This document shows positions 21,532-22,242 of a DNA stretch of 64,000 nt, piece by piece; position 1 is the first letter of the stretch, and every line of letters starts with the position of its first letter. The notes beneath the pieces were generated by a model. That model was given only the letters and a program-made list of their open reading frames with translations, was not told where the DNA came from and did not search any database. The stretch spans positions 2,790,001 to 2,854,000 of the forward strand of contig OZ024765.1 in assembly GCA_964016885.1 (NCBI GenBank), read 5' to 3'. Both the position numbers and the translations under genes were made by a program. This DNA comes from Eledone cirrhosa (Eukaryota).

Positions 21532-21777
21532 ATATATATATGATATATATATATATGATACATGCGGACACACACATATATACATGAATGCATCCGCACC
21601 CAACTGTGAGTTAAGGGTGCCAACTTCACCGATGTTGCTCAATGAATGACTGGGACAGACCAATTCAGTTTGAACCAGACCGAACCAGTATCAGAGTTAA
21701 AAATACATTATGAAGAGAGAAGAAACATTTAGATATAATTAGTAATAAAATGTATCATACCTAAACTGTTCCTAAAT

Positions 21778-21865
21778 TCCTCGACTACGTAGTTTCGTGG
21801 CATAAACAAAAACAATATATCAAAGATATAGAGTCCTTGCGAGGTCTGCCGACTTATCAAGAGGA
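21778..21865 (-). ncRNA. Type I hammerhead ribozyme, U3-A8 core variant (mirror copy)
   Basis: Reverse complement of 22080-22167. Confidence 0.7.
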
Positions 21866-22079
21866 TACCTCATTTTACTAGTCTCAAGAACGCGTCTACA
21901 CGACGTGAGAAAGAATCCCAAAAGGCGGAGGGGGAGACAGTCACGCGATATAACGGTCGAGAAACAGAGGCTTAGCTCTGTTTCTCGACCGTTATATCGC
22001 GTGACTGTCTCCCCCTCCGCCTTTTGGGATTCTTTCTCACGTCGTGTAGACGCGTTCTTGAGACTAGTAAAATGAGGTA

Positions 22080-22167
22080 TCCTCTTGATAAGTCGGCAGA
22101 CCTCGCAAGGACTCTATATCTTTGATATATTGTTTTTGTTTATGCCACGAAACTACGTAGTCGAGGA
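22080..22167 (+). ncRNA. Type I hammerhead ribozyme, U3-A8 core variant
   Basis: Stem I UCCUC/GAGGA; core UUGAUAA; stem II GU(C)GGCA..UGCCAC; GAAAC-UACGUA-GUC with palindromic stem/loop III. Confidence 0.72.
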
Positions 22168-22242
22168 ATTTAGGAACAGTTTAGGTATGATACATTTTAT
22201 TACTAATTATATCTAAATGTTTCTTCTCTCTTCATAATGTAT

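What the first reader, a model, noticed from the sequence alone, without database searches (positions are those of the whole stretch)
21703..22242. Perfect 267-bp hairpin encoding a U3-A8 variant hammerhead on both strands
The arms look identical by eye with a 6-nt loop, implying a very recent event or gene conversion. The core reads UUGAUAA instead of CUGANGA. C3-G8 is an established Watson-Crick pair in the active hammerhead, so U3-A8 is a compensatory double change that argues for function. Stem/loop III (ACUACGUAGU) is fully palindromic, the signature of dimer-cleaving hammerheads, and stem II is unusually long (~55 nt). The arms are also CpG-rich against an AT-rich background.
Basis: partly seen in the sequence, partly recalled or inferred. 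Interest (0 to 1): 0.75.

Follow-up and report, generated by a model that had tools for sequence, protein, structure and literature searches.

The report
Mirror-image insertion of a ribozyme repeat
This perfect hairpin is one copy of a young, non-coding jumping repeat present thousands of times in this animal genome and carrying a predicted self-cutting RNA motif; its mirror shape likely arose when a Penelope-type retrotransposon enzyme copied the repeat into both sides of a chromosome break, so the locus is ordinary, though the family's end pattern offers a test of how such inversions form.

Summary
The hairpin is real: exact 267-bp arms, 6-nt loop, type I hammerhead with U3-A8 core and palindromic stem III. 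It is the inner part of a 686-bp insertion (21557-22242) in (TA)n, made of two head-to-head pieces of a 591-bp tandem monomer with 7,696 exact ribozyme-half matches genome-wide. Such two-armed insertions are the family norm. In 74 of 79, one arm ends 80 nt past the cut site and the other about 245 nt past it; none has matching ends. An autonomous Neptune-type Penelope-like element (PLE) here follows the same rule (11 of 11) and also carries a U3-A8 core. U3-A8, dimer-type stem III, inverted arms and the one-sided 'tail' are all published PLE features. The arms share one haplotype and are often not nested (25 of 79), which favours priming from both broken DNA ends over cDNA fold-back. Here both copies stopped at a small native hairpin and joined by 4-nt microhomology. 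The ribozyme is predicted to be sequestered in read-through RNA. Cleavage, expression and circular RNA are untested; the partner PLE is unidentified. The scan has reported this pattern before on other DNA, including this genome.

The parts
21557..22242 (.). Whole two-armed (head-to-head) insertion of the 591-bp hammerhead repeat, 686 bp
21557..21969 (-). Left arm, 413 bp: monomer positions 405-591 and 1-226 (numbered from the hammerhead cut site); outer end near the distal end site (usually ~245, here 226)
   Evidence: 3 differences from the reference monomer
21557..21702 (-). 146-bp unpaired extension of the left arm (monomer 81-226), equivalent of the one-sided PLE 'tail'
   Evidence: tail concept from PMC8557442 and PMC11167929
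21966..22242 (+). Right arm, 277 bp: monomer 395-591 and 1-80; outer end at the proximal end site (+80)
21966..21979 (+). Junction: 4-nt microhomology (AGAG, 21966-21969) at a native 4-bp/6-nt micro-hairpin of the monomer, which gives the '6-nt loop' 21970-21975
   Evidence: junction unique in G000
22080..22167 (+). Type I hammerhead: stem I 5 bp, core UUGAUAA (U3-A8) 22085-22091, 57-nt stem II domain, GAAA, palindromic stem III 22152-22161, predicted cut after GUC 22162
   Evidence: folding only; cleavage untested
21778..21865 (-). Mirror copy of the same hammerhead in the left arm
   Evidence: follows from the exact palindrome
21430..21556 (.). Left (TA)n target microsatellite, C/G-interrupted
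22243..24018 (.). Right (TA)n-rich target microsatellite

Best explanation
The hairpin is the inner part of one recent (TA)n insertion of a 591-bp non-coding hammerhead repeat (a non-LTR retrozyme) that has thousands of genomic copies, and it was likely written by a Penelope-like retrotransposon enzyme priming reverse transcription from both ends of a DNA break. Shown: copy number, tandem 591-bp unit, (TA)n flanks, head-to-head geometry, two fixed outer ends used one per arm, shared haplotype of both arms, short junction microhomology, and the same end rule in an autonomous RT+GIY-YIG family. Inferred: (1) tandem copies are transcribed and cut to monomers by a double hammerhead formed through the palindromic stem III, then circularised; (2) a Neptune-type PLE protein cuts (TA)n on both strands and the two 3' ends prime at the AU-rich sites +80 and ~+245 of the same RNA; (3) both cDNAs run for variable lengths, several rounds on a circle; (4) their 3' ends anneal by a few bases and repair fills in. 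At this locus both cDNAs ended within 10 nt of each other, in a truncation hot spot at a native micro-hairpin, giving a perfect palindrome. This copy holds no tandem pair of ribozymes and is predicted to be catalytically silent in read-through RNA, where it would form 267 bp of dsRNA.
For: Exact matches in G000: 5,846 to a 26-nt core half, 759 to its bulge variant, 7,696 to the 3' half; reversed controls 0. 591-bp period. Of 79 two-armed insertions (45, 34), 74 pair a +74-82 end with a +225-255 end, 0 have like ends, 0 are tail-to-tail; about 48% mixed pairs would be expected from single-arm end usage (23 proximal, 16 distal, 2 other of 41). 25 of 79 have arms that cannot be copied from each other in one pass; 51 of 79 show 1-6 nt microhomology. 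Arms of one locus differ at 67 of 12,395 compared positions against 218 to the reference (38 pairs), and 15 of 59 locus-private alleles at doubly covered sites lie in both arms, e.g. 4 alleles in all 7-8 units of L068. At positions with 4 or more units, 32 variants sit in one unit and 3 in several. Autonomous family (RT, C-x4-C-x2-C linker, GIY-YIG): 11 of 11 readable two-armed copies among 20 pair ends +131 and +167, a 36-nt tail. Its terminal repeat and that of the L111 family carry UUGAAAA (U3-A8) cores; L111-family copies end at +15, +76 or +142-144, the last on TTTCTAA like this repeat's distal end. Two copies co-fold as a double hammerhead (-58.9 against 2 x -22.6 kcal/mol); stem III probability in the monomer is 0.08-0.09. 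The unsearched ribozyme half differs at 6 of 550 sites in 25 diverged loci against 4.6-8.3% in the long segments. A purified PLE protein cuts and extends both strands, starts at two internal sites and is predicted to be a dimer (PMC11167929).
Against: No RNA evidence of any kind: cleavage, transcription and circular RNA are untested. No PLE with sequence similarity to the monomer was found among 40 GIY-YIG loci or 30 ORF-start loci; only microsatellite-like matches. Near-palindromic junctions are over-represented (11 of 79 within 15 nt, 4.1 expected; 8 of 45 then 3 of 34), and this locus is itself nested, so fold-back cannot be excluded here. Its left end (226) is a rare variant (2 of 45). No covariation of positions 3 and 8 inside the family. 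Conservation counts are not independent of relatedness, and other blocks are as conserved as the ribozyme. In a recent test 8 of 9 predicted retrozyme dimers did not cleave (10.64898/2026.07.22.740005), and hammerhead mutants did not impair PLE insertion in vitro. PMC11167929 reports initiation without homology to the target, whereas these ends are TA-like. Samples are biased to young copies on the largest contigs.
Confidence: 0.75

Rival explanations
1. Same family, but this hairpin arose by fold-back self-priming: one cDNA primed at 226 ran to 395, snapped back on the native 4-bp hairpin and copied itself to +80, where it joined the other target end.
For: The right arm is nested in the left and identical to it; the junction is a native micro-hairpin. 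Near-palindromic junctions 11 of 79 against 4.1 expected. Self-priming was proposed for PLE palindromes (PMC3846280, passages).
Against: Cannot make the 25 of 79 non-nested insertions (e.g. L188, two non-overlapping 95-nt arms) and gives no reason for 0 like-ended pairs. Inner ends cluster at 383-417 anyway (21 of 131, 7.8 expected), so coincidence is likelier there. The excess was weak in the second sample (3 of 34).
Confidence: 0.13
2. Both ends prime as above, but the template is a linear multimeric transcript of a homogeneous tandem source locus, and the hammerhead plays no part in mobility.
For: Ends lie downstream of the cut site, not at it; hammerhead cleavage was dispensable for PLE insertion in vitro; no RNA data here.
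Against: Arrays of up to about 5 units per arm each carry their own haplotype in all units, hard to sustain without regeneration from a monomer; the ribozyme half is conserved across subfamilies while the propagated variant hits only the stem II bulge.
Confidence: 0.08
3. A selected, bidirectional ribozyme hairpin with a host function, kept identical by gene conversion.
For: Perfect symmetry, intact cores on both strands, unique junction.
Against: The arm is identical to many dispersed copies, so youth explains identity; read-through RNA from either strand makes the antisense arm first and pairs the ribozyme completely.
Confidence: 0.03
4. A fold-back chimera of sequencing or assembly.
For: No bridging read in the 4 runs laid (none known to be this individual).
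Against: Flanks are not mirrored: the left arm continues 146 bp in monomer sequence, the right ends in (TA)n; both ends fall on family end sites.
Confidence: 0.01

Closest known systems
Animal non-LTR retrozymes (Cervera and de la Pena 2020, PMC7229834, passages seen; Li, Clavereau and Pollet 2026, 10.64898/2026.07.22.740005, parts 1-3 of 5 read)
   Same: Non-coding tandem units with one type I hammerhead each, thousands of dispersed monomers to multimers, co-occurrence with PLEs; 591 bp lies in the 51-972 bp range of the 2026 survey.
   Different: Longer than the 170-400 nt units with shown circular RNA; U3-A8 core and 57-nt stem II; head-to-head arms with fixed ends and (TA)n targeting did not appear in the text I saw; RNA not shown here.
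EN+ Penelope-like elements, Neptune/Nematis type, and their pLTR hammerheads (PMC4209133 parts 1-2 of 4; PMC3846280 and PMC8557442 passages; PMC11167929 parts 1-2 of 4)
   Same: 5'-truncated partial tandems, inverted 5' copy, tail on one end only, microhomology junctions, (TA)n preference, palindromic stem III, U3-A8 core (about 1,300 hits in Schistosoma mansoni), hammerhead pairs on opposite strands 100-700 bp apart.
   Different: No ORF; the 'tail' is about 165 nt rather than 30-40 nt; no sequence match to the PLE terminal repeats examined; stem III (3 bp as monomer, 10 bp as dimer) is longer than in minimal PLE hammerheads.
Twin priming of LINE-1 5' inversions (recalled, not from a call)
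   Same: Both target ends prime on one RNA and the cDNAs join by microhomology, giving an inversion.
   Different: In LINE-1 the two pieces do not overlap and the second start is variable; here both starts are fixed and arms overlap, often by several units.

Membership tests
Non-LTR retrozyme | Tandem non-coding units, each with a type I hammerhead | tested here: met
   591-bp period with one motif per unit; this locus itself holds only partial units
Non-LTR retrozyme | High copy number, dispersed, monomer to multimer | tested here: met
   7,696 and 5,846 exact matches; arms up to 2,907 bp
Non-LTR retrozyme | Self-cleavage of the transcript | not testable with these tools
   Only folding and conservation
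Non-LTR retrozyme | Expression as linear and circular monomer RNA | tested here: inconclusive
   No RNA holder listed; unit-plus-30-nt contigs in 2 of 8 runs laid fit a circle or a collapsed tandem equally
Non-autonomous Penelope-like element | Head-to-head inverted 5' copy with a tail on one end | tested here: met
   74 of 79; same rule in an autonomous family, 11 of 11
Non-autonomous Penelope-like element | Insertion into (TA)n, as for linker-bearing PLE clades | tested here: met
   Outer flanks; window flanks
Non-autonomous Penelope-like element | Sequence homology to the terminal repeat of an autonomous PLE | tested here: inconclusive
   No blastn match in 40 + 30 PLE loci, a small sample of 10,597 GIY-YIG candidates; only shared architecture and short end motifs
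Autonomous Penelope-like element | RT plus GIY-YIG ORF | tested here: not met
   The insertion is 686 bp of monomer sequence; no complex ORF of 120 aa or more overlaps it
Type I hammerhead ribozyme | Core YUGANRA / GAAA / UH with a 3-8 pair and stems I-III | tested here: met
   U3-A8 natural and reported active in vitro (PMC3088659 passage); Rfam models did not report it
Type I hammerhead ribozyme | Loop I-loop II tertiary contact for fast cleavage | not tested
   Stem I is only 5 bp; no contact was sought

The most novel reading that the evidence does not exclude
One circular retrozyme RNA is reverse-transcribed at the same time from both ends of a (TA)n break by an asymmetric dimer of a Neptune-type PLE protein, each subunit locked to one of two start sites, in a doubly primed rolling circle. 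This would replace self-priming as the general origin of Penelope inverted repeats and their one-sided tail, and show that start-site spacing can stretch from 36 to 165 nt.
Probability: 0.45. Interest if true: 0.65.

Novelty: new member of a known kind. Interest (0 to 1): 0.38.

Why it matters
The value lies in the family: thousands of near-identical short insertions record both priming events, so the open question of how PLEs build tandem and inverted structures (named as open in PMC8557442) can be tested by counting. The strict one-of-each end rule, shared with an autonomous family, is mechanistic support for PLE-driven retrozyme mobility, so far argued from co-occurrence and homology. I found no paper stating twin priming for PLEs (searches: Penelope-like + twin priming + inverted, 2 papers, neither on this by title or abstract; Penelope + tail + inverted + both strands + target-primed, 2 papers), but the library lacks most subscription journals and I read no supplements.

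Tried and rejected
Rfam: no hammerhead model among the 150 of 334 listed window hits or on the arm; only miRNA hits to microsatellites and hairpins. Sequencing runs: no RNA holder listed. Laying 8 of 24 runs gave no bridge over the junction; X23 and X6 laid nothing. Contigs of 621 and 620 nt in X3 and X7 equal one unit plus 30 nt, but a collapsed tandem gives the same, so they are not counted as circles. Partner PLE: not found. A-to-I editing of the RNA intermediate: variants shared by all units showed A>G excess in the first sample (15 A>G, 6 T>C, young loci) but not in 60 new loci (3 and 5); pooled p about 0.03, driven by 3 loci; not supported. An apparent T>C excess in single-unit variants vanished without the rarity filter (6.5 against 5.6 per 10,000); rejected. 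The first junction table had alignment errors and was replaced. Dropped before counts: L039, L085 (old plus new copies), L089 (cut by edge), the second copy in L043, 15 overlapping loci, L236 and L255 (edge); L187 (79% identical, doubtful) is kept among the 45. Two papers on hammerhead core exchange and PLE dimers were not held. Search for C3U + G8A found nothing. Host taxon was not established; a guessed taxon word gave no relevant paper.

Full report
Observation. The palindrome is exact: 21703-21969 pairs with 21976-22242 over 267 of 267 bases around GCTTAG. The right arm reads as a type I hammerhead with a 5-bp stem I, core UUGAUAA, a 57-nt stem II domain, GAAA, the self-complementary ACUACGUAGU and GUC at 22160-22162. 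CpG obs/exp is 1.39 in the arm against 0.41 in the window. Rfam does not report the motif. That asymmetry argues against a fold-back read artefact. No read bridged the junction in 4 runs laid, none known to be this individual.

What it belongs to. The arm matches 40 places at 100% among 42 listed (617 candidates), many spaced 591 bp apart. Exact patterns give 5,846 matches for the 5' half of the ribozyme, 759 for a variant at the stem II bulge and 7,696 for the 3' half; reversed controls give 0. I numbered the 591-bp unit from the predicted cut. The window holds positions 405-591/1-226 inverted, then 395-591/1-80 forward, joined by four shared bases at a native 4-bp hairpin. This junction occurs once in the genome.

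Family anatomy. I mapped 89 loci and 60 more from two subfamilies; dropped rows are listed under Tried and rejected. Of 79 two-armed insertions all are head-to-head, 74 have one outer end at +74-82 and the other at +225-255, and none has like ends; single-armed copies use both ends (23 and 16 of 41), so independent choice would give about 48% mixed pairs. Junctions show 1-6 nt microhomology in 51 of 79. In 25 of 79 neither arm is contained in the other. The two arms of a locus carry one haplotype: 67 differences in 12,395 positions against 218 to the reference, and 15 of 59 private alleles at doubly covered sites are in both arms; the other 44 fit later mutation or copying error. Within arrays, variants are mostly confined to one unit (32 against 3), as expected if each unit was copied from one template. 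Within-locus divergence in young loci is 172 in 144,319 bases. Inner ends cluster at 383-417 (21 of 131, 7.8 expected), and near-perfect palindromes make up 11 of 79 (4.1 expected).

Link to Penelope-like elements. A GIY-YIG search gave 10,597 candidates, 150 scored. L111 and L166 encode RT plus GIY-YIG with a C-x4-C-x2-C linker, the mark of Neptune and Nematis clades (PMC8557442, passages); I built no tree. Both families carry UUGAAAA (U3-A8) hammerheads and end in (TA)n. [quoted passage not shown] The 591-bp repeat thus behaves as a non-autonomous PLE with a 165-nt tail. No PLE with homology to the unit was found in 70 loci, so the partner is open.

The ribozyme. The active fold of a single copy lies 1.1 kcal/mol above the minimum, with stem III probability below 0.1; two copies co-fold directly into the double hammerhead; the predicted fold of the circular unit lacks stem I. 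In 25 of 74 loci under 97.5% identity, the half not used for searching differs at 1.1% of sites against 5.7% in the stem II insert and 4.6-8.3% elsewhere, though loci are related. Core changes were seen only in single copies. U3-A8 is not new: it was reported in natural hammerheads and as active in vitro (PMC3088659, passage) and in about 1,300 PLE-related motifs, with opposite-strand pairs (PMC4209133). At this locus the full transcript folds into the long hairpin (-537 kcal/mol) with the ribozyme wholly paired, and on either strand the antisense arm is made first.

Mechanism. Most likely (0.75) both ends of a (TA)n break primed cDNA at the two fixed sites of one RNA, probably a circle, and the two cDNAs annealed by microhomology; here both ended in the hot spot and met at the micro-hairpin. 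Fold-back, proposed for PLE palindromes (PMC3846280), remains possible for this locus (0.13) but cannot explain non-nested arms. Every RNA-level step is inferred. A possible A-to-I signature did not replicate.

Comparison and novelty. It meets the DNA-level criteria of animal non-LTR retrozymes (PMC7229834, passages; 10.64898/2026.07.22.740005) and the structural criteria of PLE insertions; cleavage and circular RNA are untested. One note named the Hydra clade, which prompted the linker check. These notes are not independent support. Supplements of the cited papers were not read and may already show such end pairs.

Verdict. Real, a new member of a known kind; the locus is ordinary and probably inert as a ribozyme. 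Interest 0.38, resting on the end rule and shared template as a testable footprint of PLE insertion.

Noticed in passing
window 36158-39346 (+): Open 1,062-aa frame with endonuclease, RT and PHD matches, a probably intact LINE; RTE-like by recall.
   Followed up: partly
window 21520-21560: The microsatellite next to the left arm has G-interrupted units, the reverse complement of the C-interrupted units further left and on the right flank. A short inversion of target DNA may have supplied the primer for the rare 226 end.
   Followed up: partly
L162-L181 (G000): Very young Neptune/Nematis-type PLE family (150 scored hits at 90-100% identity), 4.8-kb unit with two overlapping frames of 455 and 784 aa in L166; its hammerhead has U3-A8 and GCAA in place of GAAA.
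   Followed up: partly
L111, L112, L116, L119, L122: Second PLE family with a minimal U3-A8 hammerhead and three end sites (+15, +76, +142-144 from the cut).
   Followed up: partly
L043 964-2263 and 3518-4817: The same two-armed insertion twice, 2.55 kb apart: local duplication or assembly repeat.
   Followed up: no
window 20259-20969, 18577-18884, 19146-19341: Tandem repeats of 123 bp (5.8 copies), 76 bp and 82 bp just upstream.
   Followed up: no
window 29120-29560 (-): Exon-like frame with a hydrophobic, transmembrane-like segment; only a weak Pfam hit (E 0.0095). Whether the hairpin lies in this gene is unknown.
   Followed up: partly
L100, L123, L124, L133: Another (TA)n-flanked hammerhead family with a C3-G8 core, unrelated to the 591-bp unit.
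   Followed up: no
monomer 61-76, 221-245, 301-317, 401-413 (L031-L090): Blocks outside the ribozyme that are as conserved across subfamilies as the core; two flank the end sites, two are unexplained.
   Followed up: no
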